A stretch of DNA of 64,000 nucleotides from Candidatus Omnitrophota bacterium (GCA_903901225.1 CAIUQE010000001.1:2563-66562); one strand, 5' to 3'; shown: positions 1,517-29,442, numbered from the stretch's first letter. The notes: generated by a model from the sequence alone, not told the origin. Numbers and translations: made by a program.

Positions 1517-3339
1517 GTCCTGTCATCTCCATCCGAAACATCGCCAGCATGTTTCATTGTGTTGTACAAACGCCAGTAAGCGCCCTGCCTTTGCATGAGC
1601 TCGGCGTGCGTCCCCGCCTCCTGGATCACCCCCTGATCAAGGACAATGATCCTGTCCGCCCCCATGATCGTCGAAAGCCGGTGAGCGATCATGATCACCG
1701 TATGCCCTCTTGAGATCCTGTTGATGGCTTCCTGTACCAGTTTTTGTGAAATATTATCCAGCGAACTTGTGGCCTCATCAAGGATCAAGACCTCAGGTTT
1801 GCGCAGCAAGGCCCGGGCAATGGCAATACGCTGACGCTGGCCCACAGAAAGCCGTACCCCCCGGTCACCCACCACGGTATCATAACCCTCGGGAAGTTCC
1901 GCAATGAAATCATGCGCATTCGCCATCCTGGCCACATCCATGATCGCTTCACGGGCCGCGCCTTCAACGCCAAAAGAAATATTGTCAGCGATCGAGCCAT
2001 GGAAAATGAACGTGTCCTGGCTCACGACCCCTACCCTGGAAAGCCAGGTATCGATCTTGATATCATTCAAAGGTATCCCATCAATGAAGATCCCGCCCTC
2101 GGGGACCTGATATAAACGCAGCATCAAGTCCGCGATCGTTGATTTGCCGGAACCCGAGGCCCCGACAATGGCCACAGCCTTGCCCTTTTCAACGTCAAAT
2201 GACAGGTCGTTGAATAACCGGTCTCTGCCAGGATAGGCAAAGGCAACGTACCGGAACGATATTCCCTTATCAAATCCCTTAAGTTCAATATGCCCATCCT
2301 TAACAATCTGTGGTTCATTCAAAATACCGTAAAGGATCTCAAGTACGGGAAGAAGACCGGAAAAGGATATCCTTTGTGAACCAAGCAGGTTGAAGGACGG
2401 GATGATCTTTTGTATGGCATAACCAAAGATCGCAACAACAGGAAGAATAGTGACAAAACTTTCCGCGTGATAGACCTTAAGAATAACGAGGACGACCGCC
2501 ATGACAGCAACAACAAAGAACTCCATGACGCATGGCGGCGCCAGAAGCCATATACTGTCCCGGATCTCCAACCTGGAATATTTAAGGACAGCGCACCAGA
2601 ACTTTTTTACCCAGGATCCCGCGGCCGAAAAAAGCATGATCTGTTTGATCCCCGAAAAAGCTTCTGCGGACAACTCATTCTGACGCTGCAGCTCATCAAC
2701 CTTGTCCCTGCCAATATGGTAAGAAACCTTTGTCGCAACGACCTTTGTAATAAAGTAATAAACGACCGCCAGAACAATAATGAACCCCGTGACCATGGGG
2801 GAAATAAAGAACAGCATCACAATGACCGAAAGGATCTTAAGCCCGTTCACCAGGATCCTGGGGATATAGTCCAATACCGTCGACGCCTCAAGGGGAACCG
2901 TCATCACCCTGTGCATCAACCAGCCATGCTTGTGGGCGACAAAAAAAGAATAATCAGCGCCCAGGAATTTCTTGAAAACCCTGTCATGAAAATCCCGTTT
3001 GGTCCTCGAAGAAAGATAAAAACCCGTGAATTGATGCAGAAATGAAAAGACTGCCTTAACGAAATTGCTCATGATAAGCAGAACGCATGTCAAAACGAAT
3101 ATATCCTTGACCGGGAATATCCTGGCGACAAATGCCAGCGCTTTATAAACTTTATCCGGCGTGCCCGACTTGGCAATCGCTTGTGATGTTTGATTAAAAA
3201 GCGTATACAACAGGGCAATGCTGGCGCTTTCCATGACGGCAAAGATCAGCATGGCCAGGAATGTGATGGCGACGTAACTTTTGTACGGCTTCCAAAAAAA
3301 CAGGATCATCTCGAGATTGGATGCTTTTGCCCCTTTCAT
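1513..3339 (-). CDS. ABC transporter with fused permease and ATPase (MsbA/type I exporter-like)
   Basis: N-terminal domain of six hydrophobic segments. C-terminal Walker A GASGSGKST, ABC signature LSVGQRQRIAIARAL, Walker B ILILDEATSSLD and an H-loop. 4-bp ATGA overlap with the upstream gene. Confidence 0.85.
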   Translation of the reverse strand: MKGAKASNLEMILFFWKPYKSYVAITFLAMLIFAVMESASIALLYTLFNQTSQAIAKSGTPDKVYKALAFVARIFPVKDIFVLTCVLLIMSNFVKAVFSFLHQFTGFYLSSRTKRDFHDRVFKKFLGADYSFFVAHKHGWLMHRVMTVPLEASTVLDYIPRILVNGLKILSVIVMLFFISPMVTGFIIVLAVVYYFITKVVATKVSYHIGRDKVDELQRQNELSAEAFSGIKQIMLFSAAGSWVKKFWCAVLKYSRLEIRDSIWLLAPPCVMEFFVVAVMAVVLVILKVYHAESFVTILPVVAIFGYAIQKIIPSFNLLGSQRISFSGLLPVLEILYGILNEPQIVKDGHIELKGFDKGISFRYVAFAYPGRDRLFNDLSFDVEKGKAVAIVGASGSGKSTIADLMLRLYQVPEGGIFIDGIPLNDIKIDTWLSRVGVVSQDTFIFHGSIADNISFGVEGAAREAIMDVARMANAHDFIAELPEGYDTVVGDRGVRLSVGQRQRIAIARALLRKPEVLILDEATSSLDNISQKLVQEAINRISRGHTVIMIAHRLSTIMGADRIIVLDQGVIQEAGTHAELMQRQGAYWRLYNTMKHAGDVSDGDDRT

Positions 3340-4955
3340 TCTGCCTTTCCGCCAGCGATATAAGTTGAAGACTTGCGCACCGCCGCATACATCCTAAAAA
3401 TATGGGTCTCGAACGGGAATCGATAAAATGAGTGTTTCACGCGCCATTTTGCGAGCCAATGGCCTATTCTGATAAAAAAACGCAATTTCGAACTTTTCAA
3501 TCTTTCGTCAACACGCGTCAATGTGCCGCGACACATATTTCCAGGCACAGCCAAGGGAATGTAAAAAAAGAATGCGTCCTTGATTAATTTATCGAGTGAC
3601 TTTCTTCTCCAGGGGTAATTTTGATAACCGCTTCCATCGTATGCCGTATCAAAAACACCCCACTCTTTCAAACTATCAGGGACCTTCAGCCCTCGCTCAA
3701 GCGCATCGCGATACATCGAAGTCCCCGGGAAGGGAATATAAAATGAAACAGGCAAGGAAAAATTAGGGTTAATCCTCTTAAGATCTACGGCCAATTTAAT
3801 ACTTTCATGCACCTGCTTTATATCTTCTAATCGCGGCAACCCAAAAAGAAAATTGAAAGAAGCTTCTATATCATAATTCTTGAGTATACGGGCCGACTCC
3901 AGCGTTTCTTCCACCCGGATCTTCTTATTAATGTAATCCAACACCTCTTGTGACCCGCTCTCTGAGCCGATATTGACCCGAAAACAGCCGCTATCGCGGA
4001 CCAATTTGAAAAGCCCCCTTTTTTCATACCGCAGAATATCATCCACATGCATTTGAGCATCCCATGCGAAACGAATGCCCTTCTCAAGTATCAACAGACA
4101 AAACCGCTCAACACGATTCACATTAACAAAAAAGTTCGCATCCATAAAACCAATGGAATTAAATCCCTTTTCTTCCACCAGAAATTTTATTTGGTCAACG
4201 ACTTTCTCGATAGGATATCCATAAGATCTCCGTTTAAAAAGAATATCGTTACAACAATAAGCACAAGAGTGCGGGCACCCAAAACTGGTTACATAATAAA
4301 GATATCCGGTTATGTTTAAGCCATCAATCACAGGCTTAGGGCGAAGGCGCAAAGAGGCGAGCCTGTAATATTCCAAATCCAGCAATTCGAACGCAGGCAA
4401 GGACGCCACATCCATTTTACCGTTTTGTTCATCTTTGGTTTTTACGATTTTCCCGTCACATTTGAAATAAACACCAGGTAAAGATGAAAAGTCACGTTCT
4501 TGCCGGCTGATCGCTTCCACAAGATTCAAAAAAGTATTCTGTCCGATGCCTTTGAGGATAATATCAACATTCGGATCTTTAATGGACTCCTCAGGAAGGA
4601 TCGAAACATGCCACCCACCCCAGACAATCGGGATTTCGGGGCATACCTCCTTGATCTTCCGGGAGAAGGCTATGCCTGCGGTTATTTCATTGCTTGTCAA
4701 TGCTGACACACCCACACACAACACCTGATCCAGCAAAGGCTGGATCATTTGATAGATATCCTCAATGGAATGACGTTGATCAATAATTTTTACCGTATAA
4801 CCGGCATCTCTGAGCGGTGCGGCAACCGATATCAACGACAATGGTATTAATGAAACTCGACTTTGAGATAGGGAAACGTCTTCCTTATAGGGCCACCCCT
4901 TGAACAAGATCACAATATTTCGCTTCTGCTTATCCATATAACTCCCTTTGCTCAA
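3336..4955 (-). CDS. Cobalamin(B12)-binding radical SAM enzyme (class B radical SAM, methyltransferase-like)
   Basis: N-terminal Rossmann-like B12-binding region (IIDQ..., IPIVWGGWH) followed by a radical SAM core with the CxxxCxxC cluster motif GCPHSCAYC. Confidence 0.8.
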   Translation of the reverse strand: MSKGSYMDKQKRNIVILFKGWPYKEDVSLSQSRVSLIPLSLISVAAPLRDAGYTVKIIDQRHSIEDIYQMIQPLLDQVLCVGVSALTSNEITAGIAFSRKIKEVCPEIPIVWGGWHVSILPEESIKDPNVDIILKGIGQNTFLNLVEAISRQERDFSSLPGVYFKCDGKIVKTKDEQNGKMDVASLPAFELLDLEYYRLASLRLRPKPVIDGLNITGYLYYVTSFGCPHSCAYCCNDILFKRRSYGYPIEKVVDQIKFLVEEKGFNSIGFMDANFFVNVNRVERFCLLILEKGIRFAWDAQMHVDDILRYEKRGLFKLVRDSGCFRVNIGSESGSQEVLDYINKKIRVEETLESARILKNYDIEASFNFLFGLPRLEDIKQVHESIKLAVDLKRINPNFSLPVSFYIPFPGTSMYRDALERGLKVPDSLKEWGVFDTAYDGSGYQNYPWRRKSLDKLIKDAFFFYIPLAVPGNMCRGTLTRVDERLKSSKLRFFIRIGHWLAKWRVKHSFYRFPFETHIFRMYAAVRKSSTYIAGGKAE

Positions 4956-5623
4956 ACCTTCTCAAGCCATTGCTCAAATCCAAAAAAAGACTCTACGCAC
5001 ATATCCGCGTCATATGCGTCATTGGCTACCACTTGCGCAAATGGACCACGCCTGATCCTGACCGTTCGCATCCCCAGCTTCTTAGCTGAAACAAAATCTT
5101 TGTGCGGATTGTCACCAACATAGACCATGTCTTTATAATCACATTTTAAATCTGCCGCCATCAATCTATACGAAACAGGATTTGGCTTATAACACGCCAC
5201 CCCCAACTCATGCGTATAAATGATCTTTGAGAAATACGGCTCAATTCCCAACGCCGTCACTTTGCTTTTCTGAACAACATCAAGCCCGTCAGTAATCATT
5301 CCAAGAGAGGACTTCATCTTCCCAAGACGATCCAATATGTATTTCGCATCCTCGAAAAGACAAATTTTCGGGGCATGCGCCCTGTACATGTCCACGAGAG
5401 ATGCGACTTCGCATAAACCTCCCAATTGAAAGCATTCAAGAAGACGTCCAAAAGTATTATCCCTGCCATAAACTGAGTATATTTTTAACAGGCACCTATA
5501 CACACTAGCAACCGGCTTTTGATAATGCCGCGCCACATAACACGCCACCTTCTTAAATCCACCCATTAAGAAGTCGCGCTCACGGTAAAGCGTATCATCA
5601 AGGTCAAAAATGACAGCCCGCAT
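4952..5623 (-). CDS. HAD-superfamily hydrolase/phosphatase
   Basis: N-terminal DxDxT motif (MRAVIFDLDDTLY) and C-terminal GDNPHKD motif typical of haloacid-dehalogenase-like hydrolases. Confidence 0.7.
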   Translation of the reverse strand: MRAVIFDLDDTLYRERDFLMGGFKKVACYVARHYQKPVASVYRCLLKIYSVYGRDNTFGRLLECFQLGGLCEVASLVDMYRAHAPKICLFEDAKYILDRLGKMKSSLGMITDGLDVVQKSKVTALGIEPYFSKIIYTHELGVACYKPNPVSYRLMAADLKCDYKDMVYVGDNPHKDFVSAKKLGMRTVRIRRGPFAQVVANDAYDADMCVESFFGFEQWLEKV

Positions 5624-6599
5624 TCCTTGCGTCCTCTCTCAAAACCTGATCATCGGTTATAAAAATGTCGTCCGTATATCTCAACATGATCAGGCCCGGC
5701 CCATAGGAAAATCCAGCCAAATCCAACGGCTCTCCCTTGGCCATACGGATCATCCAGCAGGGGGTATCTAGCCCTGCCTTAATACCCAAGTTAGCCCCAC
5801 CGCCGATCCGTGGATTCATTTCAATAACATAAACTTTCCCGTCGACATGCCTCATACATTGGACCGTTAAATGTCCCGTCCCCCCAATATCTCTCACTAA
5901 ACATTCTGCAATAGAATTGATCTCCGGATCCTGAACTGTGCGCGTCTTATAAGATTCTCCCGCCACAACCTCGATCCTTTGGCGCACCACAGAACAGCAC
6001 TGGCCTGCATTGCCACAAAAGACATCCACCGTATACTCAATGCCCTGCAGGGCCTTTTGAATAACACAGGCACCGCCGCACCACGCTAAATACCCCGCCG
6101 CCTGATCACAAGAATCCACTCTGGCTGTTCGTATGCTGCCGCTGCCGCAACGAGGTTTTATAAACCATGGCAAAGGGACCTGGGATCTGTCGCCTGGCAA
6201 CCATGTTTCAGGCACCAGATATCCCTTATCTCGGCAGAATTTATAAAACTGGTACTTGTCCTGGCAGATTTCTACCGTTCGAAGCGGACTGACCATCACC
6301 ATAATTCCCGCTTGAGCAAGCGCTTCCCTGCCATCGGCAAACATTGCTAATTCACCATCACGCGTCGGGATGATCAAGCTGATATTTTCTTCCGAACACA
6401 ACTTCTTTAGGTGTTCCACCTGTTCTTGCCCTGGCGGGTATGGCCACAGACGTCCATGCGGCGCATAATATAAAGTTGCCGATAACGGGTCTTTATCTAA
6501 TACAAAAACGTGCCCACGGTCATCCAATCGTTTTAGTGCCGATTCAAAGGCCTTAACCAGCCATATTTTCCTTGAAGCACTGGTCAGCAATATGTTCAT
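5604..6599 (-). CDS. ATP-grasp domain enzyme (carboxylate-amine ligase-like)
   Basis: About 330 aa. Contains E-x-N-P-R-I-G-G-G (EMNPRIGGG), the characteristic Mg/ATP-binding loop of ATP-grasp enzymes, preceded by a pre-ATP-grasp-like N-terminal region. Confidence 0.6.
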   Translation of the reverse strand: MNILLTSASRKIWLVKAFESALKRLDDRGHVFVLDKDPLSATLYYAPHGRLWPYPPGQEQVEHLKKLCSEENISLIIPTRDGELAMFADGREALAQAGIMVMVSPLRTVEICQDKYQFYKFCRDKGYLVPETWLPGDRSQVPLPWFIKPRCGSGSIRTARVDSCDQAAGYLAWCGGACVIQKALQGIEYTVDVFCGNAGQCCSVVRQRIEVVAGESYKTRTVQDPEINSIAECLVRDIGGTGHLTVQCMRHVDGKVYVIEMNPRIGGGANLGIKAGLDTPCWMIRMAKGEPLDLAGFSYGPGLIMLRYTDDIFITDDQVLREDARNAGCHF

Positions 6600-7528
6600 T
6601 ATGCCTTCCTGGCACGCGCAAAGATCATCACATTACGGCCAATGCCCATCTTCGCAAATGCTTGGTATAATCCACGCCGGTATGCCGGATCAAGCGAAGA
6701 TTCAAAAGCTATCCTTTTACGATGACATTCATTCCCTATATCAGGATTCCCAACATAGCTGTCGCCAAACAACAAGAAAAACTCCATCGGAAAATCTGTT
6801 GTGACATACACAGGGTCAAACCCTCGCACAGATAAATAATTCTGAAGTGTTTCCACACTAAAATAATTAAGATGATCCGGGACAGCCACCCACCACGGAT
6901 CTGCCTTCAGAGCCTTTTGTGCGTAATACTGCAAAGCATTAAAATCATTGGGGACCCTAATACATAACAACCCCTTCCCTGGCTTTAAAAATTCGGCTGC
7001 CTGAGAGATCACTTTATCCGGATCCTGAACATGCTCCAAAACACTCATGATGGTCACAACATCAAAAGACTTCTTCCATTTCTTGCAATCCCTTACCGCT
7101 TCAGCCAATGTCCCAGAAAAGATTTCGCCTCTCCGGGATCGAGGAAAATCCTTCTTCTTTTCGTACGGCTCAATCCCTGCGACATCAACCCCCTGGCGCG
7201 ACATATACCGGATCATTTCCCCTGTCCCGCAACCTATATCCAGGAGGCGAACCGTAGTCCTCTTAAAATTTTCCTGGATTACCGCCATAATATCTTTATA
7301 TAGATTTGCTTGAAGCCACTTTTTCTCCCGAATGGAATCTTTGTCCTTTTTCATTTGACGCCTTAATTCAGGTGCGCGCCCGCCTTTTTTTATCAACTCA
7401 TAGTAATCTTTCTTATAAAAAGTATCGAGCTCATCCAAGGTCGGTAACGGAGACAATTGGTAATGCCCACTGCTATTCCTTGTCACAGAATGCTTCTTCC
7501 CCTTAAAAACAGTCTTCTTATCAAACAT
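6599..7528 (-). CDS. Class I SAM-dependent methyltransferase
   Basis: SAM-binding motif LLDIGCGTGEMIRYM and a downstream acidic loop. Confidence 0.65.
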   Translation of the reverse strand: MFDKKTVFKGKKHSVTRNSSGHYQLSPLPTLDELDTFYKKDYYELIKKGGRAPELRRQMKKDKDSIREKKWLQANLYKDIMAVIQENFKRTTVRLLDIGCGTGEMIRYMSRQGVDVAGIEPYEKKKDFPRSRRGEIFSGTLAEAVRDCKKWKKSFDVVTIMSVLEHVQDPDKVISQAAEFLKPGKGLLCIRVPNDFNALQYYAQKALKADPWWVAVPDHLNYFSVETLQNYLSVRGFDPVYVTTDFPMEFFLLFGDSYVGNPDIGNECHRKRIAFESSLDPAYRRGLYQAFAKMGIGRNVMIFARARKA

Positions 7529-7549: not shown

Positions 7550-8605
7550 TTATTTTGAAAAGAAATGCTCCCATGTGAACCATTCATCGGCATTGATCGG
7601 CTGTGACAATCTATGCCCGCAAATCAACTCAAAATATTTTGGATGCAACCCCATTCCGGGGCGCTTTACAACAACGGCCTCCATGGTCACAACTTCACCT
7701 GCTCTTAAAGCATGTGCCGCAACCAAGCTGCGCCTTCCTATCTTATGATTCTCTAATTCCCCCGCCTGGATCTCTTTCCAACCATCCCCCAGCATGCTTT
7801 CGGTCAGGCGGACCGCCTTGACAAGACTTGCCAATTGCTGCGGGTCCATCGCAAATGGATGGTCCGGGCCAGCTGTTTTCCTGTCTAACGTAATGTGCTT
7901 CTCAATAACACACGCGCCCAAGGTACGCGCAATGACCGCGGCCATATTGTCCTCCGTATGATCAGACAAACCAACCGAACAATGAAATGCCTCTTTCAAC
8001 GTCAACAAACATCGAAGGTTCATCTCATCCTGACGCGCAGGGTAAGCGCTAACACAATGCAATAAAATAATATTTGAACAACCCGCCGATCTCAGCGTAT
8101 CCATAGCCAATTCAATATCTGCCAGGCCGGAATTCCCTGTCGCCAAAATAACCGGCTTCCCAGTCGTGGCTATTTTATTAAGCAATGGATAATGCGTCAG
8201 CTCAAAAGATGCCACCTTATAGAATGGCACCTCGACATCCTCTAAAACATCGACAAAAGACTCATCAAATGGCGTGGAACAAAATATAATACCCCGCTGG
8301 TCACAATGTTTCTTTAGCGGCGCATGCCATTCAACAGGCATTTGAATGCGCTTGATCAATGTATATGGCGTATCCTCCTCAAGGCTGCGGCCATTCATCT
8401 CCGAGCTGCGTGGCGTATAACGGGAATACAACCCATCCGCGGTATAAGACTGAAACTTAACAGCATCGCAGCCCGCTTGTTTAGCCACGTCAATTAAAGC
8501 GAGAGCGGCATCAAAGTCATTGTTGTGATTAGACCCGATTTCACCAATAATGAAACAAGGATGGCCATCGCCGACCATCCGACCGCCCAGCGATACCTCA
8601 CTCAT
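7550..8605 (-). CDS. N-acetylneuraminate/nonulosonate synthase family (NeuB/PseI/LegI-like) with C-terminal SAF domain
   Basis: N-terminus CFIIGEIGSNHNNDFDAALALIDVAKQAGCDAVKFQSY is the canonical NeuB TIM-barrel start. The C-terminal about 60 aa (RSLVAAHALRAGEVVT...) resemble the antifreeze-like SAF domain. Confidence 0.85.
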   Translation of the reverse strand: MSEVSLGGRMVGDGHPCFIIGEIGSNHNNDFDAALALIDVAKQAGCDAVKFQSYTADGLYSRYTPRSSEMNGRSLEEDTPYTLIKRIQMPVEWHAPLKKHCDQRGIIFCSTPFDESFVDVLEDVEVPFYKVASFELTHYPLLNKIATTGKPVILATGNSGLADIELAMDTLRSAGCSNIILLHCVSAYPARQDEMNLRCLLTLKEAFHCSVGLSDHTEDNMAAVIARTLGACVIEKHITLDRKTAGPDHPFAMDPQQLASLVKAVRLTESMLGDGWKEIQAGELENHKIGRRSLVAAHALRAGEVVTMEAVVVKRPGMGLHPKYFELICGHRLSQPINADEWFTWEHFFSK

Positions 8606-9374: not shown

Positions 9375-9377
9375 CTT

Positions 9378-23214: not shown

Positions 23215-24203
23215 TTCCCTGACCGGGAGGAACGTTCGATCGCGGCAAGGACTTTCATGGTCCCTACAGCTTCCTGCATGCTGACCATCGCCGGTTTCCG
23301 GCCCTTGATCATATTTATAAAATGTTCAAGCTCATCCAGGTAGGTCTGATTGAAATCATAATTATCGGGCAAACGGAAAACATCCCTGTTCTCATGATCT
23401 TTCTTGCCCTGATAAGAAACTTTCTTGCTGTTCATATCCCAGTCCAGCGTGCCATTCTCCGCGATGATCTGGCAGCCCCGCACGAGACGCTGCGACAAAT
23501 AGCCAAGATGCAGTTCAACCGCCGTTCCATTCTTATACGCCAGGATGGCCGAGCACATGTCCTCCGTATCTATTTCCAAAGCGCTGACACGGTGGACATG
23601 GCCGAAAACTTTTTCAGGCATTCCCAGGAACCACAGCACATAGTCAATTTCATGAACAAGTTCCCTGTGCACACCGCCGCCCAGCGCCTTGCTGGCGCTG
23701 ATCGTCTTGCGGTAATCAACTCCCTTGCGCCAATGCGGCAAATAATAATCCGCGTACGCCCGGACACAATAGATCTTGCCCATTTTGGGAAGATGCTCCT
23801 TGATGAACCGCAGGACCGGATAATAACGCAAGTTGTAGGCAACATCCCAGCGTTTGAATTTTAAGGCTGTAAGTTTCTTTTCAAATTCACCCGCGGCTTT
23901 CAAGTCCATGACCGGCGGTTTTTCCAGCAGGAAAGGGATCTTTTTTCTGCCCATTACCAGCGCGTCGCGCAAATGCTGGCTCGTCGGAGAACAGATGATC
24001 GCGCCATCGATCCGCGCTTCTTTGGCCCACACCCCGTCATAAGAGGCATACTCTTTCAAACCCCTGTCATTGCCCGATCCCGCCGCATGGCGCAGTAAAA
24101 CCACCTCATGCCCCAACGCCAGCGCATTGGCCGCGTGCCTTTTGCCGATGGAACCATAGCCAATAACAAGGAACTTCATATCAGCGCCTGACCCCAAAAG
24201 CAC
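23172..24203 (-). CDS. Gfo/Idh/MocA-family NAD(P)-dependent oxidoreductase
   Basis: N-terminal MKFLVIGYGSIGKRHA Rossmann motif and the EKP consensus (LLEKPP) typical of the family. Confidence 0.75.
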   Translation of the reverse strand: MLLGSGADMKFLVIGYGSIGKRHAANALALGHEVVLLRHAAGSGNDRGLKEYASYDGVWAKEARIDGAIICSPTSQHLRDALVMGRKKIPFLLEKPPVMDLKAAGEFEKKLTALKFKRWDVAYNLRYYPVLRFIKEHLPKMGKIYCVRAYADYYLPHWRKGVDYRKTISASKALGGGVHRELVHEIDYVLWFLGMPEKVFGHVHRVSALEIDTEDMCSAILAYKNGTAVELHLGYLSQRLVRGCQIIAENGTLDWDMNSKKVSYQGKKDHENRDVFRLPDNYDFNQTYLDELEHFINMIKGRKPAMVSMQEAVGTMKVLAAIERSSRSGKWVPLITRQQKRAL

Positions 24204-25479
24204 TGATGGGTTTGCCCGTGATCAGGGACTTAAGATCCTTCCCGACGATGGCCTTGTGCAGTAATCCGAAAGCCTCATCGTAGATCTTCAGCGTATCCTC
24301 GATATCTTTGGGTTGATGCGCGTAACTCGGATGATGGTAACCGACGAACAACAGCCCCCGCTTCACGCATTCCTGCTGCAGGTACGACCTGATCTCGTTA
24401 ACGGAAAGGTCATCGACCGGAGAAAAAACAAGATGCTGCATGGGAGCAAGCCCTATGACCTTGATGATCTGCTCCAGCCCATGTTTGGCGACCAGGCGGA
24501 TAAGCCCCTCCTTCAGGATGGTGCCCATCTTCCAGATATGTTCGATCACCGGTTCATTCTCAATGATCTCGATCGTCTTCAAGGCCGCGTTAAGGCTGCA
24601 CTTCTCCGTCGCGTACGAAGCCGAAAAGAAGCACTGTTCATCGCCGAACTGCTCCATCAGGCTTTTCTTGCCGGCAAGAGCGCTGAGCGGAAAGCCGTTG
24701 GAAAGCCCTTTGGCGAAACATGCCAGGTCAGGCGTGACCTTGAAATAACGTTGCGCGCCACCCAAAGAAAGACGGAAGCCCGTCTTCATCTCATCGAAGA
24801 TCAGCACGATATTGTGTTCTGCCGTTAAACGGCGGATCCCTTCCAGGAAGCCTTCCTGCGGCTCTACCGTGATCACCGGCTCCATCACAAGGGCCGCGAT
24901 CTCATGGGCCTGCGCCTTGATCGTTGTTGCGATAGCCGCGAGGTCATTGTAATTGTGCGGGATCACCCATGCTGACATCTCCGCCGGGATCCCTTTATTG
25001 CGCGGCGTTGATGCGATGAACCAGTCATGAAAGCCATGGTAGCCGCCGACCGTGATAACCTTGCTCTTTTTGGTGAAATTCCTGGCCAGGCGTACAGCCC
25101 CTTCGCACACATCAGAACCATTCTTGCTGAACCTGACCATCTCGGCGCAGGGGATGATCTGCTTAAGCTTGGCCGCCAGGCGTGATTCTTCCGGGCAGGA
25201 TAACGTGAACACGAGGCCGTCATCAATACCCTGTTTCGCCGCGGCATTCACGCGCGGGTCCGCGTAACCGAGGTTGATCACGCCCAGGGACATGGAATAA
25301 TCGATGAATTCATTCCCGTCCACATCATAAACCCTGCAGCCTTTGGCCTTCTCAATGAAAAGGGGTGACGCGCCGATCACATACAGGTTCGGATTGCGGC
25401 TGAATGTGGAGGTCCCCATCGGGATCAATCCCAGCGCGTCCTCATACATCTTCAACGAATGTGTGAACTTCATTAACAA
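24181..25479 (-). CDS. Class III (GSA-aminomutase-like) PLP-dependent aminotransferase
   Basis: FDEMKTGFR motif (PLP-lysine region of class III aminotransferases such as HemL), a GYHG segment, about 432 aa. Confidence 0.75.
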   Translation of the reverse strand: MLMKFTHSLKMYEDALGLIPMGTSTFSRNPNLYVIGASPLFIEKAKGCRVYDVDGNEFIDYSMSLGVINLGYADPRVNAAAKQGIDDGLVFTLSCPEESRLAAKLKQIIPCAEMVRFSKNGSDVCEGAVRLARNFTKKSKVITVGGYHGFHDWFIASTPRNKGIPAEMSAWVIPHNYNDLAAIATTIKAQAHEIAALVMEPVITVEPQEGFLEGIRRLTAEHNIVLIFDEMKTGFRLSLGGAQRYFKVTPDLACFAKGLSNGFPLSALAGKKSLMEQFGDEQCFFSASYATEKCSLNAALKTIEIIENEPVIEHIWKMGTILKEGLIRLVAKHGLEQIIKVIGLAPMQHLVFSPVDDLSVNEIRSYLQQECVKRGLLFVGYHHPSYAHQPKDIEDTLKIYDEAFGLLHKAIVGKDLKSLITGKPISAFGVRR

Positions 25480-25482
25480 CTC

Positions 25483-26655
25483 CTATCTAAGAGAGAATAC
25501 AACCGCCTTGATCTCATCCTGCCCGAATTTCACCGGATTCTGGTCGAACGCCGCTTTCAACTGCGCTGAATTATCAACGATCAGCATCAGGTCGCTCTCC
25601 GTCTTGACCCCGAACCCCTTAAGGTCGGTCGGGATACCCAGCGCATGGCTAAGCGCCTCGATCGCATCCGCGAATTTTATGGATTTCTCTTTCGGGCTCA
25701 GCCCATGACCGTCGGATACGAGGTCATAAAGCTCGGCATATTCATAATATTCATGCGCGACATTATGCTTGATCACACCCGGCAAAAATACAGATCCTGC
25801 CAGGCCATGCGGGATATCAAAATAGACCCCCAGAGGATAGCTCAACGCACCCGCCGGACCTGCGCCGGCATTCATCAAAGCCGCCCCCGCGCAACCGCTG
25901 CCGATCAGCAGGTTCAGCTTGACGGGCGTTGACATGTCGCCTTGGGCAAGCTTGTTCAGGTTCTCAAAAAGGAGTTTGAACGCCTGCCGGGAAAACATCC
26001 TTGAAATGAAGGTGGCATTCCTGGCCACAAAACTCTCCAGGGTATGCGTCATGGCATCCATGCCCGCGGAAGCAAAAACCTTCATCGGGCAACTGCTCAA
26101 GAATTGGGGATCATAGACCGCCAGCCGCGGGTAATTGTACTCCGTGTTGATGCCGAACTTCCACTTTGCCGCCGTATCAATGAAGACCGCGTACGGGGTC
26201 ACTTCGCTGCCCGTCCCGGCCGTTGTCGGCAGTGCCACAACAGGTAAAGGCATATTCTTGACCTTGCCAAACCCGCGGTAATTGATCGCCGCGCCCTCGT
26301 TGGTCTTGAGCGTCGCCAACCCCTTGGTCAGGTCGAGCGTACTGCCACCGCCGATGCCGACAAAACAATCCAACGCCACATCCTGAAAACCCGCCTTGGA
26401 CTGATCCAAATGGTCATATGTCGGCTCAGGCATTTCATTCACAAAAAGCGTGACGTGTTCCAACTCTTTCTGGCAAATGCCAATGATCTCTTTAACATAC
26501 GGGCAATGGTCATAAACCCCTTTATCGACCACGAGGCCTATCCTGTTCCACGCATAGTTCTTGAGGTACTTCGGCAATTCACGGGCGATCCCGTCGCCGC
26601 TGAGCATTTCGGTCTTCATGACAAAACGGATATTTTCTTTCAAGTGATCTTTCAT
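25483..26655 (-). CDS. Iron-containing (group III) alcohol dehydrogenase / dehydroquinate-synthase-like oxidoreductase
   Basis: GIGGGSTLDLTKGLA NAD-binding glycine motif and conserved His-rich metal-binding region (HGLAGSV...H) of the Fe-ADH family. Confidence 0.7.
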   Translation of the reverse strand: MKDHLKENIRFVMKTEMLSGDGIARELPKYLKNYAWNRIGLVVDKGVYDHCPYVKEIIGICQKELEHVTLFVNEMPEPTYDHLDQSKAGFQDVALDCFVGIGGGSTLDLTKGLATLKTNEGAAINYRGFGKVKNMPLPVVALPTTAGTGSEVTPYAVFIDTAAKWKFGINTEYNYPRLAVYDPQFLSSCPMKVFASAGMDAMTHTLESFVARNATFISRMFSRQAFKLLFENLNKLAQGDMSTPVKLNLLIGSGCAGAALMNAGAGPAGALSYPLGVYFDIPHGLAGSVFLPGVIKHNVAHEYYEYAELYDLVSDGHGLSPKEKSIKFADAIEALSHALGIPTDLKGFGVKTESDLMLIVDNSAQLKAAFDQNPVKFGQDEIKAVVFSLR

Positions 26656-26695
26656 AGCCCATTCCTGTTAAATTTAATATTGTTTAAAACACACA

Positions 26696-27376
26696 TTACT
26701 TCACGCCATAGGCCACCACATGGCGCTCCCGCGAGAATTTAACCAGTTTGATAAATGGCGTAAGCTTGACTGTCGGAGGAAAATCGATCGGGACCAGCGC
26801 CGCGATGATCTCCGGGATAAATCGAAATAATTTATTCCGCCAGCTGAACGGCAAATAATGAATGTTCTCAGCCACCACATCCTTAAAGTCATAGCGCAAC
26901 AAAAGATCGTGCAGCGAAAAGACCGTGAACGGCGATTTATGGTCCGCATCATCATAAAACACCTTATAAACCGACTTCCAGTCGCATGTCAGGATAATGA
27001 TCTTTCCCCCCGGCTTGAGCACCCTGCGCAAGTTCTCCATAACGTGATAAACATTCCCAAGATGCTCAATAGCGGATTTCATCATGATAAAATCGAAATA
27101 ATTGTCCTCAAACGGCAAGGCCTCCCGGTCAATGTCAGCAACTTTGACCTTAAGCCCCTTGGCACACGCCAAGGAGTCCTTATCGACGCCGTACACATCG
27201 AACCCGAGGTCGGAGTAAATATCCACAAACTCTCCCCGGCCACAACAAACATCCAATAACTTACCCTTCCGGGCTTTAAAATATTTATCCGCCAAATGTT
27301 CGCACAATTGACGCGGGAATTTTGTATATGTCCGCACGTTCTCGTTATAATGGACCTTCGTATAACTGTTCTGCAT
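26696..27376 (-). CDS. Class I SAM-dependent methyltransferase
   Basis: SAM motif LLDVCCGRGEF plus VYGVD acidic loop. 226 aa. Confidence 0.65.
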   Translation of the reverse strand: MQNSYTKVHYNENVRTYTKFPRQLCEHLADKYFKARKGKLLDVCCGRGEFVDIYSDLGFDVYGVDKDSLACAKGLKVKVADIDREALPFEDNYFDFIMMKSAIEHLGNVYHVMENLRRVLKPGGKIIILTCDWKSVYKVFYDDADHKSPFTVFSLHDLLLRYDFKDVVAENIHYLPFSWRNKLFRFIPEIIAALVPIDFPPTVKLTPFIKLVKFSRERHVVAYGVK

Positions 27377-27381: not shown

Positions 27382-29442
27382 TCAGGTCTCCTCTACTTTG
27401 TAAAAGAAATCACGGATATCCATGAATTCACTCATTTTCCGCAAGGTAACATTCTTGTTCTTGTGCGCGTATTGCTGCAACAATAATTCCAACGCCTGTT
27501 TCTGCTTCTCGGGAAGGTAAAAACGGAACTTGATGCCTTGGGGGCGATGGAACCGCTCAAGGTCCGTCTTATACTTGTCATTCTGCCATCCGAGGATATC
27601 ATAATGGAACGTAAGGACCTTTTCCCTGGAGACCTCTGCCCAATCAGAGGTCAGGTCAAGGATCGCGGCAAAATGGAACTTAAAAAGATCCTCGATAACG
27701 GCCCGCTTGGACTGGCAAAGGGGCGAATAATTAATTGCCGTCGCGAATAAGAACTCATTAAAACTGGCCATGGCTTCGATCAGGGTCTTAAATATATACT
27801 TCCCGTTCATCTTGCCGTGCTTGCCATCTTCCAGGTCTTTGAATTTCTCTGGCCGGCTGTAATGGGCCTTAAGATCATCCACCGAATCAAACCACTCAGC
27901 CCTGGCTTCCTGCTTGAATTCACTGAAGATCTCCTGGATCCTCTGATAGCTGGCATTTGTCTGGGCCTCATCGATCAATCTCAGGATGTAATCCAGAGGG
28001 CTGATGCCAATCGACCTTAAATATTTCAACACACCGTAATAGAACCTGTAATTCCACAGGAACTGGATGAGCCAATGGACCGGTCGAAAATACAGGATCT
28101 CATCCTCGGTCATGTCGGATGTCGCCCGAATACCTTCTTCAGCCTCGAAAGACATGCGGCCTTCATACGTGCCGAATGAATTATCAACAAGCCTGAATTT
28201 CGTCGTGCAATTGAACTTCCCATTTTCCTTCAGGAGCGACATCTCCGTCCCTTCCAGCAAAAGGGCGTTATAGCAGATGATGTAAGAAACATCCCAGTCG
28301 AAAAGGCTGCGCAGCGTCCTGATATGACTTTCTTTTGTTTCGCCAGGAAGCCCAAGGATGATCTCCGTGCCGGACATGCCGCCCATGGCATTGACCCTGT
28401 CCATGATGTCCTTGAATACGGAGATCTTGATATTGGCCCGGTTCACGTTCATGAGCACCTGCTCATCCAGCGACTGCAATGACACAATGATGTTCGAGCT
28501 TTTCAGGATCCGGGCGATCTCAAAAAGCTTCGGTTGATTCTTGGCCCAGTTCGTATTGAACTTCTTCAAGTTCTGCGTTTCATCGGACAACTTCGCGATA
28601 TATTCCGCGATCTCCATGTCACGTTCAACAACGCCGAAATTGGCATCCGCCAGGTTCAGGATGTTCGTGTTCTTGACTTTTGTGGCGATATAGCGCAATT
28701 CCTCCTTCACGCGGTCCATGCTGAAAAGATCCAGCCGGTTGTGCGAAGAAAATCCCTGCGCGCAAAATGTGCATGTGTACGGGCAGCCTCTGTTGGTCTC
28801 GACGATAGGGATAAGCTTGGTCTCGAAAAACTCATCCAGCAAGCCGGTCAGATAGGGTGAAGGGATGCTGTCAAGATCCTTGATCCTGGGAATATTATTA
28901 CCCACAACAGCGGCCCTGTTCCTCACATCATAAAAAATGACCCCGTCAATGGGCGCTGATCGCAACTGATCGATCTGCAGGCCTCTTGCCTCCACAGCCT
29001 TCAATAATTCAATAAAGGGTTTTTCCCCCTGATAGGGCACATAAAAATCCACATGCGGATGAGTTTCAAAGAACCGCGCATACCCGCGCGGAGAGTAATC
29101 AATGTTCGGCCCGCCAAAGACCACGATCGCCTGGGGATTGATCTCTTTAACGCGGGCCGATATCTTCTTATTGATATCCACGTTCCAGGTATAATTACTG
29201 AACCCCACAATATCAGCAGGATCCTTCTTGTACGCTGAAATGAACTGATCCGGATATTTGAACAACCTGACATCAACTTCCTGCGGCGCATATTTCCTGG
29301 CATAGCCGGCGATATAGGAAATATTCAGCGGGAACATATAGGTCCCCACGCCCAGATAGTTATGCACCAGATCACACAAATTTATCTTTAACGTTTTACG
29401 CACAGGCTTCACAGCTCCTTCGATCCCTACATCCCCAGGCAT
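27382..29442 (-). CDS. Cobalamin(B12)-binding radical SAM enzyme with long C-terminal extension
   Basis: N-terminal B12-binding-like domain, CxxxCxxC motif GCPYTCTFC, 686 aa. The C-terminal about 250 aa have no recognised motif. Confidence 0.75.
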   Translation of the reverse strand: MPGDVGIEGAVKPVRKTLKINLCDLVHNYLGVGTYMFPLNISYIAGYARKYAPQEVDVRLFKYPDQFISAYKKDPADIVGFSNYTWNVDINKKISARVKEINPQAIVVFGGPNIDYSPRGYARFFETHPHVDFYVPYQGEKPFIELLKAVEARGLQIDQLRSAPIDGVIFYDVRNRAAVVGNNIPRIKDLDSIPSPYLTGLLDEFFETKLIPIVETNRGCPYTCTFCAQGFSSHNRLDLFSMDRVKEELRYIATKVKNTNILNLADANFGVVERDMEIAEYIAKLSDETQNLKKFNTNWAKNQPKLFEIARILKSSNIIVSLQSLDEQVLMNVNRANIKISVFKDIMDRVNAMGGMSGTEIILGLPGETKESHIRTLRSLFDWDVSYIICYNALLLEGTEMSLLKENGKFNCTTKFRLVDNSFGTYEGRMSFEAEEGIRATSDMTEDEILYFRPVHWLIQFLWNYRFYYGVLKYLRSIGISPLDYILRLIDEAQTNASYQRIQEIFSEFKQEARAEWFDSVDDLKAHYSRPEKFKDLEDGKHGKMNGKYIFKTLIEAMASFNEFLFATAINYSPLCQSKRAVIEDLFKFHFAAILDLTSDWAEVSREKVLTFHYDILGWQNDKYKTDLERFHRPQGIKFRFYLPEKQKQALELLLQQYAHKNKNVTLRKMSEFMDIRDFFYKVEET

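What the first reader, a model, noticed from the sequence alone, without database searches (positions are those of the whole stretch)
3336..29442. Three cobalamin-dependent radical SAM enzymes embedded in a sugar-nucleotide pathway
The ORFs at 3336-4955, 10241-11761 and 27382-29442 each combine an N-terminal B12-binding domain with a CxxxCxxC radical SAM core (GCPHSCAYC, GCPSLCTFC, GCPYTCTFC). Class B radical SAM enzymes typically methylate or rearrange unactivated carbons (e.g. Fom3, GenK, TsrM-type chemistry).

Three of them inside one nonulosonate cluster suggests iterative C-methylation or other radical tailoring of the sugar or its acyl side chain. I do not know of a characterised precedent for nonulosonic acids.
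Basis: partly seen in the sequence, partly recalled or inferred. Interest (0 to 1): 0.75.

Follow-up and report, generated by a model that had tools for sequence, protein, structure and literature searches.

The report
B12 radical enzymes tailoring sialic-acid-like sugars
An uncultured anaerobic bacterium carries one long operon for two bacterial sialic-acid-like sugars, and it contains three different vitamin-B12-type radical enzymes whose relatives sit in the same kind of sugar operon in many other anaerobes, which points to an unstudied radical step in making these surface sugars.

Summary
ORFs 3336-4955 (A), 10241-11761 (B) and 27382-29442 (C), all on the minus strand, are intact. Each has a Pfam B12-binding domain, a Radical_SAM domain and a CxxxCxxC motif that is invariant in its family.

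They lie in a tightly packed 30-gene operon (35473-833) of a Candidatus Omnitrophota MAG. The operon encodes a legionaminic-type pathway and a pseudaminic-type pathway.

A, B and C are only 21-26% identical to each other. Each belongs to its own family, and each family recurs in nonulosonic acid (NulO) clusters of unrelated anaerobic bacteria and archaea:
- B lies between PseC and an oxidoreductase in a complete pse-like operon.
- C lies in Leg-type clusters and is once fused to a CMP-transferase domain.
- A lies in a NeuB-methyltransferase-ATP-grasp-HAD module.

C is clearly TokK/CysS-like, so C-methylation, possibly sequential, is a reasonable prediction. A and B reach no characterised subfamily, and their predicted folds match the methylase TsrM and the B12-independent dehydratase AprD4 equally well. 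Their chemistry is therefore open.

Eight full-text literature searches found no paper that links B12 radical SAM enzymes to NulO biosynthesis. An untested lead is recent mass-spectrometry evidence for CMP-activated 10-carbon ulosonic acids whose biosynthetic origin is unknown.

The parts
27382..29442 (-). Radical SAM C, 686 aa: B12-binding domain, radical SAM core and a family-specific C-terminal domain of about 230 aa. It is TokK/CysS-like.
   Evidence: Pfam. PDB sequence search finds TokK at E 8e-42 and CysS at 5e-39; the family profile finds both at about 1e-59. NCBIfam KedN5 family scores 217.6 bits against a cut-off of 700. Orthologues lie in Leg-type clusters.
10241..11761 (-). Radical SAM B, 506 aa: B12-binding domain and radical SAM core. 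The family is highly conserved (59-73% identity across phyla in all but one distant locus) and carries an invariant E-C-R-C strand motif.
3336..4955 (-). Radical SAM A, 539 aa (TTG start; the database copy starts 6 codons later): B12-binding domain and radical SAM core. The family is rare.
17188..18315 (-). Fourth radical SAM gene. It is KamA-like (amino-acid 2,3-aminomutase family), carries CASHCRYC and has no B12 domain.
   Evidence: TIGR00238 scores 125 bits (cut-off 199); Glu, Arg and Lys 2,3-aminomutase models score 117-131 bits.
29427..35473 (-). Legionaminic-type core. It comprises an SDR dehydratase-like gene (34439-35473), a LegC-like aminotransferase (33325-34611), a NeuC/LegG hydrolysing 2-epimerase (32163-33323), a NeuD/LegH acetyltransferase fused to a NeuB/LegI synthase (30488-32170), and a CBS + nucleotidyltransferase that resembles PtmE (29427-30506).
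   Evidence: Pfam; NCBIfam.
21667..27376 (-). Genes that travel with C: a class-I methyltransferase (26696-27376), an Fe-ADH (25483-26655), a class-III aminotransferase (24181-25479), a GFO/IDH/MocA oxidoreductase (23172-24203), an SDR (22432-23214) and a CMP-NulO synthetase-like gene (21667-22407).
   Evidence: Pfam. The same gene set lies next to the C orthologue in L127. Fe-ADH lies next to C in L040 and L042.
12756..21692 (-). Variable decoration and transfer cassette. It holds two unknown ORFs (20361-21692, 19246-20364), a hexapeptide acyltransferase (18317-19225), the KamA-like radical SAM gene, an AMP-binding enzyme (15876-17324), a conserved unknown of 402 aa (14659-15867) and a PFTS-motif polysaccharide protein (12756-14657).
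   Evidence: In the related locus L013 this slot instead holds HisF/HisH-like genes.
7550..12756 (-). Pseudaminic-type core around B: PseB (11761-12756), B, a 288-aa CTP_transf_3 cytidylyltransferase (9378-10244), an AP_endonuc_2 TIM-barrel protein (8598-9374) and NeuB #2, which is borderline PseI (7550-8605).
   Evidence: Neighbours found in the 35 B loci: PseB in 27, CTP transferase in 29, NeuB in 28.
4952..7528 (-). Partners of A: a methyltransferase (6599-7528), a PylC-like ATP-grasp ligase (5604-6599) and a HAD hydrolase (4952-5623).
   Evidence: Pfam. The same module lies with A orthologues. It is absent from the closest Omnitrophota locus, L005, where NeuB2 abuts the ABC gene.
833..3339 (-). 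ABC exporter with fused membrane and ATPase domains (1513-3339) and a methyltransferase (833-1516), at the distal end of the operon.
   Evidence: Pfam. Both are conserved at 68-69% identity in L005 and recur in L010, L018, L028, L040, L042 and L125.

Best explanation
The window carries one operon of about 34.6 kb and 30 genes from a Candidatus Omnitrophota MAG. It builds two CMP-activated nonulosonic acids, one legionaminic-type and one pseudaminic-type, for a surface glycan exported or assembled with an ABC transporter.

The three B12-domain radical SAM proteins are dedicated tailoring enzymes of this sugar chemistry. They work in three independent modules, not as an iterative trio.

**C (inferred mechanism).** C is a TokK/CysS-type methylcobalamin-dependent C-methyltransferase.
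- One SAM methylates cob(I)alamin.
- A second SAM is cleaved at the [4Fe-4S] cluster to give a 5'-deoxyadenosyl radical.
- That radical abstracts H from an unactivated carbon of the Leg-type sugar, most likely the CMP-activated form or a methyl or acyl substituent on it.
- The substrate radical then takes CH3 from methylcobalamin, possibly more than once.
- The family-specific C-terminal domain probably binds the substrate handle.

**B.** B is a near-core component of a widespread variant pse operon with the order PseB-PseC-B-oxidoreductase-cytidylyltransferase-second aminotransferase-PseG-PseH-PseI. It most likely modifies the sugar skeleton itself. It could do so by C-methylation or by a radical dehydration or epimerisation coupled to the adjacent oxidoreductase and aminotransferase.

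**A.** A belongs to a plug-in module of methyltransferase, ATP-grasp ligase and HAD hydrolase. It most likely modifies the amide-linked side chain that the ATP-grasp enzyme attaches, or the sugar near that side chain.

**What is shown:** domain content, intactness, family-level conservation, and genomic linkage to NulO genes across phyla and domains.

**What is inferred:** cobalamin use, the substrates, and the chemistry of every step.
For: **Domains and motifs.** Shown.

**Operon structure.** Gaps between genes from 35473 down to 833 are at most 40 nt, and many genes overlap.

**Two pathways.** The NeuC, NeuB_NnaB and PseB equivalog cut-offs are met, and NeuB2 sits at the PseI cut-off (340.2 bits against 340.25).

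**Evidence for C.**
- The family profile hits TokK (1.3e-59) and CysS (2e-59) across the Cbl and radical SAM domains.
- TokK Trp76, the residue beneath the corrin that is shared only with ThnK and CysS, aligns with the invariant W86 of the C family.
- Every C orthologue context examined lies within Leg-type genes and next to a CTP_transf_3 gene: the window plus L040 (Fundidesulfovibrio butyratiphilus), L041, L042 and L127.
- P0049 is a natural fusion of a C homologue to CTP_transf_3.
- More distant full-length relatives (29-41% identity) also sit between NeuB, NeuC and CMP-synthetase genes in metagenome contigs.

**Evidence for B.**
- 35 loci come from Nitrospirota, anammox Planctomycetota, Omnitrophota, Saganbacteria/WOR-1 (Margulisiibacteriota), Desulfobacterota, Chloroflexota, Methanoregula and ANME-2.
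- Neighbours found: PseB in 27, CTP transferase in 29, NeuB in 28, GFO oxidoreductase in 25, class-III aminotransferase in 24 and DegT in 23.
- PseG-like and PseH-like genes complete the operon in L037.

**Evidence for A.** All six contexts carry NeuB, a methyltransferase of about 300 aa and a PylC-like ATP-grasp; five of the six carry a HAD gene. One context is a Halobacteriota archaeon MAG.

**Modularity.**
- L005 lacks the A module.
- L013, L018 and L024 combine the genes that accompany C (Fe-ADH, aminotransferase, oxidoreductases, CMP-synthetase) with the B module, and lack A. C itself would lie beyond the fetched flanks.
- Pairwise identity among A, B and C is 21-26%.
Against: - No biochemical data exist for any member of the three families, and the organism is uncultured.
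- A and B reach no NCBIfam cut-off. Their best scores are to BchE (134 bits) and HpnJ (136 bits), which are non-methylases.
- By sequence, the closest solved structure to A and B is AprD4. By fold, AprD4 scores about the same as TsrM. From my own knowledge, AprD4 needs no cobalamin despite a B12-like domain, so even cobalamin use is not established for A and B.
- TokK Trp215, the active-site tryptophan shared by the known sequential methylases, is an invariant Gln in the C family.
- The C-terminal domain of C does not align with that of TokK or CysS.
- B carries invariant cysteines in a barrel strand (E266-C267-R268-C269). A methylase does not obviously need these, but they would suit an H-atom donor.
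- The window's Pse-type module lacks recognisable PseC, PseG and PseH genes, so its product may not be a pseudaminic acid.
Confidence: 0.6

Rival explanations
1. A and/or B are not methyltransferases. They use the 5'-deoxyadenosyl radical for a rearrangement on the sugar. One option is an AprD4-like 1,2-diol (or amino-alcohol, as in DesII) dehydration or deamination that gives a ketone, which the adjacent GFO/aldo-keto reductase then reduces or the class-III aminotransferase then aminates. Another is a NeoN-like epimerisation of an unactivated stereocentre, with a conserved cysteine returning the H atom. The result would be a new deoxy, amino or stereo-isomeric nonulosonic acid, not a methylated one.
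For: - The top NCBIfam scores go to the non-methylases BchE and HpnJ (their roles are given).
- B is followed directly by an oxidoreductase, and a second aminotransferase lies nearby, in most of the 35 loci. This is the same logic as AprD4/AprD3 and DesI/DesII/DesV (my own knowledge of those pathways).
- C267 and C269 in a barrel strand of B are invariant.
Against: - The Pfam B12-binding domain scores well above threshold in both proteins (48 and 56.5 bits against 32.1).
- The NCBIfam AprD4 model scores only 71 and 50 bits against a cut-off of 500.
- Most characterised class-B enzymes are methylases.
- SAM-dependent class-I methyltransferases accompany A, which fits a methyl-rich product.
Confidence: 0.3
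2. The radical SAM enzymes do not touch the nonulosonic acid. They make or modify the small acyl or amino-acid units that are later attached to its amino groups, for example by beta- or gamma-methylating an amino acid before an ATP-grasp or AMP-binding ligase attaches it.
For: - A always travels with a PylC-like ATP-grasp ligase and a methyltransferase.
- The KamA-like aminomutase, the AMP-binding enzyme and the hexapeptide acyltransferase form an obvious beta-amino-acyl cassette.
- An Fe-ADH and a GSA/GABA-type aminotransferase lie next to C.
Against: - B sits between PseC and the cytidylyltransferase in operons that hold no ligase and no side-chain genes (L037, L021, L015).
- C-like genes are embedded between NeuB, NeuC and the CMP-synthetase, and one is fused to the CMP-transferase. 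That points to the sugar or the CMP-sugar as substrate.
Confidence: 0.2
3. The co-location is coincidental. The organism encodes many B12 radical SAM genes, and three of them happen to lie among sugar genes while serving unrelated pathways such as lipids, peptides or cofactors.
For: A further B12 radical SAM gene (55221-56648) lies outside the cluster in the same window, so such genes are frequent in this genome.
Against: - Each of the three families keeps its NulO neighbourhood across different phyla and in archaea.
- One family has a fusion to a CMP-transferase.
- The genes overlap their neighbours inside one operon.
- The out-of-cluster paralogue has no orthologue in any of the NulO loci.
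Confidence: 0.03

Closest known systems
TokK / ThnK / CysS (KedN5 family): cobalamin-dependent radical SAM sequential C-methyltransferases
   Same: Applies to C. It has the same Cbl-binding Rossmann domain and radical SAM barrel (profile E about 1e-59 over residues 19-452). It has a three-domain layout of similar length (660-715 aa). The tryptophan beneath the corrin (TokK W76) is conserved as an invariant W86.
   Different: - The active-site tryptophan (TokK W215) is an invariant Gln.
- The C-terminal domain is unrelated at the sequence level.
- The NCBIfam KedN5 score is 218 bits against a cut-off of 700.
- The genomic context is CMP-nonulosonic acid biosynthesis, not carbapenem, cystobactamid or enediyne pathways.
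Fom3 (fosfomycin): cobalamin radical SAM methylase acting on a CMP-activated substrate
   Same: The logic is the same. Fom3 is a class-B radical SAM enzyme that recognises a cytidylylated intermediate made by a neighbouring or fused cytidylyltransferase (reference 39). C and B sit next to a CTP_transf_3 gene, and one C homologue is fused to one.
   Different: No specific sequence relationship was shown here. The substrate class is different: a phosphonate for Fom3, a 9-carbon keto-sugar acid here.
GenK / GenD1 (gentamicin): class-B radical SAM C-methylases of amino sugars
   Same: They are a precedent for cobalamin radical SAM C-methylation of an amino-sugar carbon, including chain extension at C-6'.
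   Different: They act on aminoglycoside pseudo-oligosaccharides in actinomycete antibiotic pathways. No close homology to A, B or C was detected in the HMM or PDB searches run here.
AprD4 (apramycin): radical SAM 1,2-diol dehydratase with a B12-like N-terminal domain
   Different: The NCBIfam AprD4 model scores 50-71 bits against a cut-off of 500, and identity is about 18%. A and B score clearly on the Pfam B12-binding model.
Canonical pseudaminic (PseBCHGIF) and legionaminic (LegBCHGIF plus PtmE/F/A) acid pathways
   Same: PseB, NeuC/LegG, LegH-LegI and NeuB/PseI-like genes, cytidylyltransferases, and PtmE-, PtmF- and PtmA-like genes are present. The B-family operons in other genomes carry the complete PseB, C, G, H, I set.
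   Different: No described Pse or Leg pathway contains a radical SAM enzyme. The extra oxidoreductase plus class-III aminotransferase pair and the B12 radical SAM genes are additions.

Membership tests
Class B (cobalamin-binding) radical SAM enzymes | N-terminal B12-binding Rossmann domain followed by a radical SAM barrel | tested here: met
Class B (cobalamin-binding) radical SAM enzymes | CxxxCxxC motif ligating the [4Fe-4S] cluster | tested here: met
   The motif is present and invariant in alignments A1, A2 and A3.
Class B (cobalamin-binding) radical SAM enzymes | Actual binding and catalytic use of cobalamin | not testable with these tools
   AprD4 shows, from my own knowledge, that a B12-like domain need not bind cobalamin. 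This needs purification and cofactor analysis.
TokK/ThnK/CysS sequential methylases (NCBIfam KedN5 family NF033712) | Score at or above the family cut-off of 700 bits | tested here: not met
   C scores 217.6 bits and matches only model positions 57-392 of 624.
TokK/ThnK/CysS sequential methylases (NCBIfam KedN5 family NF033712) | Tryptophan beneath the corrin (TokK W76), shared by TokK, ThnK and CysS only | tested here: met
   TokK W76 aligns with W86 of C. W86 is invariant in 29 family members.
TokK/ThnK/CysS sequential methylases (NCBIfam KedN5 family NF033712) | Active-site tryptophan after the cluster motif (TokK W215, CxxxCxxC-D-W) | tested here: not met
   C has CPYTCTFC-A-Q, and Q229 is invariant in the family.
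TokK/ThnK/CysS sequential methylases (NCBIfam KedN5 family NF033712) | Homologous C-terminal substrate-binding domain | tested here: inconclusive
   Profile alignments stop at about residue 452 (TokK) and about 400 (CysS). No structure prediction of C was run, so fold-level similarity of the last 230 residues is unknown.
AprD4-family radical SAM diol dehydratases (NF033070) | Score at or above the cut-off of 500 bits | tested here: not met
BchE / HpnJ (non-methylating class B enzymes) | Score at or above the equivalog cut-offs (481 and 578 bits) | tested here: not met
   A scores 134 bits on BchE. B scores 136 bits on HpnJ and 123 bits on BchE.
Legionaminic acid pathway | Hydrolysing 2-epimerase (NeuC/LegG) and NeuB-type synthase with a NeuD/LegH acetyltransferase | tested here: met
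   TIGR03568 scores 456.5 bits (cut-off 235.9). TIGR03569 scores 449.7 (cut-off 399.65). TIGR03570 scores 198.2 (cut-off 160.8).
Legionaminic acid pathway | LegB dehydratase and LegC aminotransferase at equivalog level | tested here: not met
   The LegC family model scores 354.8 bits against 420. The LegB model scores 53.7 bits against 475. General family membership is clear, but orthology is not.
Pseudaminic acid pathway | PseB, the inverting 4,6-dehydratase | tested here: met
   TIGR03589 scores 480.7 bits (cut-off 407.75) for 11761-12756.
Pseudaminic acid pathway | PseI synthase | tested here: inconclusive
   TIGR03586 scores 340.2 bits against a cut-off of 340.25 for 7550-8605. The same protein scores 352.5 on NeuB_NnaB, below that model's cut-off.
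Pseudaminic acid pathway | PseC, PseH and PseG present in the module | tested here: not met
   None of the three is recognisable next to PseB, B and NeuB2 in the window. They are present in the B-family operons of other genomes, for example L037.
KamA-family aminomutases (for 17188-18315) | Score at or above the TIGR00238 cut-off of 199.2 bits | tested here: not met
   The score is 125.2 bits. The Glu, Arg and Lys 2,3-aminomutase models score 117-131 bits, all below their cut-offs.

The most novel reading that the evidence does not exclude
One of these families, most plausibly B (the near-core member of the variant pse operon) or C, forms a new C-C bond on the sugar skeleton by methyl transfer to C-9 or another backbone carbon. 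If so, it would be the missing enzyme behind the CMP-activated 'higher-carbon' (C10) ulosonic acids.

Those sugars were detected by mass spectrometry in Magnetospirillum gryphiswaldense, and more weakly in Methanococcus. The reports describe a 14.016-Da ladder at m/z 679.198, 693.214 and 707.230, and no biosynthetic route was proposed.

This would be the first radical, cobalamin-dependent carbon-skeleton extension of a sialic-acid-like sugar, and it would be widespread in anaerobic bacteria and archaea.
Probability: 0.2. Interest if true: 0.85.

Novelty: new variant of a known kind. Interest (0 to 1): 0.66.

Why it matters
Nonulosonic acids cap flagella, S-layers, capsules and LPS, and they shape recognition by phages and immune systems. 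All characterised tailoring of these sugars uses polar chemistry: acyl, amidino and O- or N-methyl transfer, and epimerisation through keto intermediates.

This work points to at least three, and probably more, distinct B12-type radical SAM families dedicated to these pathways in Omnitrophota, Nitrospirota, anammox bacteria, Desulfobacterota, Chloroflexota, candidate phyla and methanogen or ANME archaea. That implies a class of sugar structures that nobody has described, such as C-alkylated, chain-extended, deoxygenated or stereo-inverted forms. It also implies a new substrate class for cobalamin radical SAM enzymology.

The finding gives concrete candidate genes for the unexplained 10-carbon CMP-ulosonic acids seen by mass spectrometry. 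It also names a cultured organism, Fundidesulfovibrio butyratiphilus, in which the C-type cluster could be studied.

Tried and rejected
1. **Rfam scan of the whole window.** It found no match, so there is no cobalamin riboswitch or other known RNA.
2. **Pfam and NCBIfam at relaxed thresholds.** The unknown ORFs 14659-15867, 19246-20364, 20361-21692 and 39235-40407 gave nothing usable. A PseG or glycosyltransferase role for them could not be tested.
4. **Checking whether the extra conserved cysteines of B form an auxiliary Fe-S site.** Model coordinates are not exposed, so distances could not be measured.
6. **Kuenenia NulO variants.** The 261/275/289 ions and the free amine first looked like a methyl ladder. 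The later preprint attributes them to deacetylation, formylation and O-methylation by a Leg-type cluster with a deacetylase and a formyltransferase. I dropped this as support.
7. **Metagenome scan with the C profile.** It returned mostly distant relatives (27-43% identity), not orthologues. It was useful only for showing that full-length C-like proteins are often, but not always, NulO-linked: 9 of 30 loci of at least 12 kb.
8. **The out-of-cluster B12 radical SAM gene (55221-56648).** I considered it as a fourth partner and rejected it, because it has no orthologue in any NulO locus.
9. **A flagellin glycosylation island.** I considered this and found no support. The 64-kb window holds no flagellar or Maf genes, and the ABC exporter, PFTS protein, GT2 and acyltransferase genes point to a polysaccharide or a general surface glycan.

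Full report
**1. The observation**

The region lies inside a single array of minus-strand genes running from 35473 down to 833. Gaps between genes are at most 40 nt, and most neighbours overlap by 1-26 nt. This is a 30-gene, 34.6-kb operon.

I call them A (3336-4955, 539 aa), B (10241-11761, 506 aa) and C (27382-29442, 686 aa).
- Each carries the quoted CxxxCxxC motif.
- Each scores above the Pfam gathering thresholds for both B12-binding (PF02310) and Radical_SAM (PF04055).
- In family alignments of 25-29 sequences the three cluster cysteines are invariant.
- ORF lengths match those of the homologues.

Two things were missed:
- A fourth radical SAM gene lies in the region at 17188-18315. It carries CASHCRYC and belongs to the KamA/aminomutase family, below cut-off. 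An AMP-binding enzyme and a hexapeptide acyltransferase flank it.
- A further B12-type radical SAM gene lies at 55221-56648, outside the cluster.

**2. The organism and the cluster**

The window matches metagenome contigs only. Its GAPDH falls in a 90%-identity cluster whose named members are all Candidatus Omnitrophota MAGs.

Pfam and NCBIfam annotation divides the operon into modules.
- **Legionaminic-type core.** It comprises an SDR dehydratase-like gene, a LegC-like aminotransferase, NeuC/LegG (equivalog met), a NeuD/LegH-NeuB/LegI fusion (both cut-offs met) and a CBS-nucleotidyltransferase like PtmE.
- **C and its companions.** These are a class-I methyltransferase, an Fe-ADH, a class-III (GSA-aminomutase/GntE-like) aminotransferase, a GFO/IDH/MocA oxidoreductase, an SDR and a CMP-NulO synthetase-like gene.
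- **A variable cassette.** It holds two unknowns, the hexapeptide acyltransferase, the KamA-like radical SAM gene, the AMP-binding enzyme, a conserved unknown of 402 aa and a PFTS-motif polysaccharide protein (TIGR04417).
- **Pseudaminic-type core.** It comprises PseB (equivalog met), B, a 288-aa CTP_transf_3 protein, an AP_endonuc_2 TIM barrel and a second NeuB that sits exactly at the PseI cut-off.
- **The A module.** It comprises a methyltransferase, a PylC-like ATP-grasp ligase, a HAD hydrolase and A.
- **Distal end.** An ABC exporter and a methyltransferase close the operon.

The 64-kb window holds no flagellar or Maf genes. Upstream lie GT2/methyltransferase and acyltransferase genes. 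A surface polysaccharide or a general glycan is therefore more likely than a flagellin island.

**3. Three families, three modules**

A, B and C are 21-26% identical to each other. They are ancient paralogues, not duplicates.

*Family B*
- It is strikingly conserved, at 59-73% identity across phyla and into archaea, apart from one distant locus at 47% (L035).
- A scan of one genome per GTDB species gave 35 loci. They come from Nitrospirota, Brocadia/Scalindua and other Planctomycetota, Omnitrophota, Saganbacteria/WOR-1 (Margulisiibacteriota), Desulfobacterota, Dehalococcoidia, Actinomycetota, Methanoregula and ANME-2.
- BLAST of the window's proteins against all ORFs of these loci found the following neighbours, even though many contigs are short: PseB in 27, the CTP transferase in 29, NeuB in 28, a GFO oxidoreductase in 25, a class-III aminotransferase in 24 and a DegT aminotransferase in 23.
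- The usual gene order is PseB-PseC-B-GFO-CTP transferase-aminotransferase-X-X-NeuB. In L037 the two X genes are a Glyco_tran_28_C protein (PseG-like) and a GNAT (PseH-like), and a second GNAT follows NeuB.
- B therefore belongs to a widespread operon that is a complete pse pathway plus three extras: B, an oxidoreductase and a second aminotransferase.

*Family C*
- It has thousands of relatives. Orthologues of 44-68% identity are found in Omnitrophota, Chloroflexota, candidate phyla, Nitrospirota, Nitrospinota and a cultured sulfate reducer, Fundidesulfovibrio butyratiphilus.
- Every orthologue context examined lies among Leg-type genes and next to a CTP_transf_3 gene, often with an Fe-ADH, a class-I methyltransferase, a DegT and a SPASM radical SAM gene. 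These contexts are the window, L040, L041, L042 and L127.
- L127 repeats the window's companion set exactly.
- P0049 is a 907-aa natural fusion of a C homologue to a CTP_transf_3 domain.
- More distant full-length relatives (29-41% identity) from a metagenome scan also sit between NeuB, NeuC and CMP-synthetase genes, sometimes in two copies.
- Relatives that match only the first about 450 residues mostly do not. Overall, 9 of 30 loci of at least 12 kb carry NeuB.

*Family A*
- It is rare, with about 30 orthologues among 5.8 billion clusters.
- All six contexts carry NeuB, a methyltransferase of about 300 aa and a PylC-like ATP-grasp. Five of the six carry a HAD gene. Most also carry a PseB or PseB-PseC fusion, a class-III aminotransferase, an aldo-keto or GFO reductase, a CTP transferase, the AP_endonuc_2 barrel and a PFTS protein. 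One context is a Halobacteriota archaeon MAG.

*Modularity*
- In the closest Omnitrophota locus (L005), NeuB2 directly abuts the ABC exporter. The four-gene A module is therefore an insertion in the window.
- Loci L013, L018 and L024 combine the genes that accompany C (Fe-ADH, aminotransferase, oxidoreductases, CMP-synthetase) with the B module, and lack A. C itself would lie beyond the fetched flanks.
- Other NulO clusters carry yet other B12 radical SAM families, 21-27% identical to A-D.

Co-location is thus functional, not chance. The three enzymes also work in separate modules, not iteratively on one site.

**4. What chemistry**

*C.* C is a clear relative of the two structurally characterised sequential methylases.
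- phmmer gives TokK at 8e-42 and CysS at 5e-39. The family profile gives both at about 1e-59 over the cobalamin and radical SAM domains.
- TokK Trp76 lies 3.8 Å below the cobalt and is shared only with ThnK and CysS among known methylases. It aligns with W86, which is invariant in the C family.
- TokK Trp215, the active-site tryptophan, is an invariant Gln in C.
- The last about 230 residues of C do not align with TokK or CysS. They are rich in invariant aromatic and basic residues, including W463, Y465, W517, K544, W619, R668 and K669.
- In TokK the C-terminal domain holds the pantetheine handle of the substrate. By analogy I infer that the C-terminal domain of C binds the CMP or sugar handle. 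The CMP-transferase fusion and the Fom3 precedent of a cytidylylated substrate fit this reading.
- I therefore predict methylcobalamin-dependent C-methylation, possibly repeated, of a Leg-type CMP-sugar or of a substituent on it. The adjacent class-I methyltransferase could install a first O- or N-methyl group that C then extends, as CysS does, but this is speculation.

*A and B.* Neither can be assigned.
- No NCBIfam model comes near its cut-off. The best scores are BchE (134 bits, A) and HpnJ (136 bits, B), both non-methylases.
- The best PDB sequence hit for both is AprD4.
- The fold confirms class-B architecture but does not separate a methylase from a cobalamin-free dehydratase.
- Two features of B favour a non-methylase reading. 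It is almost always followed by an oxidoreductase with a second aminotransferase nearby. That matches the logic of AprD4/AprD3 and DesI/DesII/DesV, which I cite from my own knowledge. It also has invariant cysteines in a barrel strand (ECRC, residues 266-269).
- The strong B12-domain scores, and the fact that most characterised class-B enzymes are methylases, favour methylation.
- For A, the constant company of an ATP-grasp ligase and a methyltransferase suggests that it acts on an amide-linked side chain.

**5. Literature**

- Full-text searches for radical SAM or cobalamin terms together with nonulosonic, legionaminic or pseudaminic terms found no paper linking B12 radical SAM enzymes to these sugars.
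- The only co-occurrence is an unexplained generic radical SAM ORF in some Legionella LPS loci.
- A review of cobalamin radical SAM enzymes lists no NulO-related member.

Two mass-spectrometry studies are relevant as leads.
- Kleikamp et al. 2020 reported 'potential 10 C' ulosonic acids in M. gryphiswaldense and Methanococcus.
- A 2026 preprint (SugarBase) shows CMP-activated species at m/z 679.198, 693.214 and 707.230 in M. gryphiswaldense. Their DMB chain-length marker is 311.10 where a 9-carbon sugar gives 297.09, and one extra carbon is lost in MS3. The authors propose no enzyme.

A cobalamin radical SAM C-methylation of the sugar skeleton would produce exactly such a species. Condensation of PEP with a heptose derivative would too, and I could not check whether that organism encodes A, B or C homologues. 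The Kuenenia NulO variants that first looked like a methyl ladder are explained by the authors through deacetylation, formylation and O-methylation, so I do not use them.

**6. Verdict**

The tailoring link is real and there is no known precedent. C is a plausible, possibly iterative, methylase.
- The 'three iterative methylases' picture should be replaced. There are three independent, widely distributed NulO-associated B12 radical SAM families in separable modules, and the chemistry of two of them is undetermined.
- I rate this a new variant of a known kind of enzyme. It is of substantial interest because it opens an unexplored chemistry in a well-studied sugar class and gives testable candidates for the unexplained 10-carbon ulosonic acids.

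Noticed in passing
window 15876-19225 (-): A KamA-like radical SAM aminomutase (17188-18315) sits between a hexapeptide acyltransferase (18317-19225) and an AMP-binding enzyme (15876-17324). This looks like a cassette that makes a beta-amino acid, activates it and attaches it to the sugar. The AMP-binding ORF as listed overlaps the aminomutase by 137 nt, so its true start is probably further downstream.
   Followed up: partly
window 55221-56648 (-): Another B12-binding radical SAM gene (475 aa) lies outside the sugar operon, next to a DUF234/ATPase gene. It has no orthologue in any of the roughly 120 NulO-related loci fetched. Its function is unknown.
   Followed up: partly
window 12756-14657 (-) and 14659-15867 (-): A PFTS-motif polysaccharide protein (TIGR04417, 201 bits) and an unannotated 402-aa protein recur in NulO clusters elsewhere. 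PFTS proteins appear in L033, L034, L044, L125 and L126. Homologues of the 402-aa protein appear in L013, L018, L024, L040, L042, L075 and L076. They are candidate NulO transferases or polymerases with no known function.
   Followed up: partly
window 10241-11761 (-), residues 251-376 of protein B: Family B has invariant or nearly invariant cysteines beyond the cluster motif: C267, C324 and C376 are invariant, and C251, C269 and C365 are conserved at 90% or more. These include an E-C-R-C motif at the end of a barrel strand.
   Followed up: partly
window 24181-26655 (-): An Fe-ADH and a class-III aminotransferase form a pair. The pair resembles, from my own knowledge, the KdnB/KdnA logic that converts a primary alcohol of Kdo into the amine of Kdo8N. 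It recurs next to C orthologues (L127; Fe-ADH also in L040 and L042). It may introduce an extra amino group.
   Followed up: no
window 35502-37276 (-): A papain-family cysteine protease (C1) and a YhcG/DUF1016 PDDEXK nuclease lie directly upstream of the sugar operon. They separate it from further glycan genes at 38186-42848 (an epimerase, a methyltransferase-GT2 fusion and an acyltransferase_3). This may be an insertion.
   Followed up: no
window 58133-62658 (-): There is a run of four genes: a cyclopropane-fatty-acid-synthase-like methyltransferase (CMAS), DUF1365, a flavin amine oxidoreductase and DUF1295. It looks like a conserved lipid-modification gene set unrelated to the finding.
   Followed up: no
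L040 5837-7246, L041 10491-12062, L042 7613-8980; also L040 13326-14330, L041 2880-3854, L042 12164-13144: Other NulO clusters, including that of the cultured Fundidesulfovibrio butyratiphilus, carry additional B12 radical SAM genes of yet other families (21-27% identical to A-D and to each other). They also carry a SPASM-domain radical SAM gene close to the C homologue. NulO clusters of anaerobes appear to be a general hotspot for radical SAM genes.
   Followed up: partly
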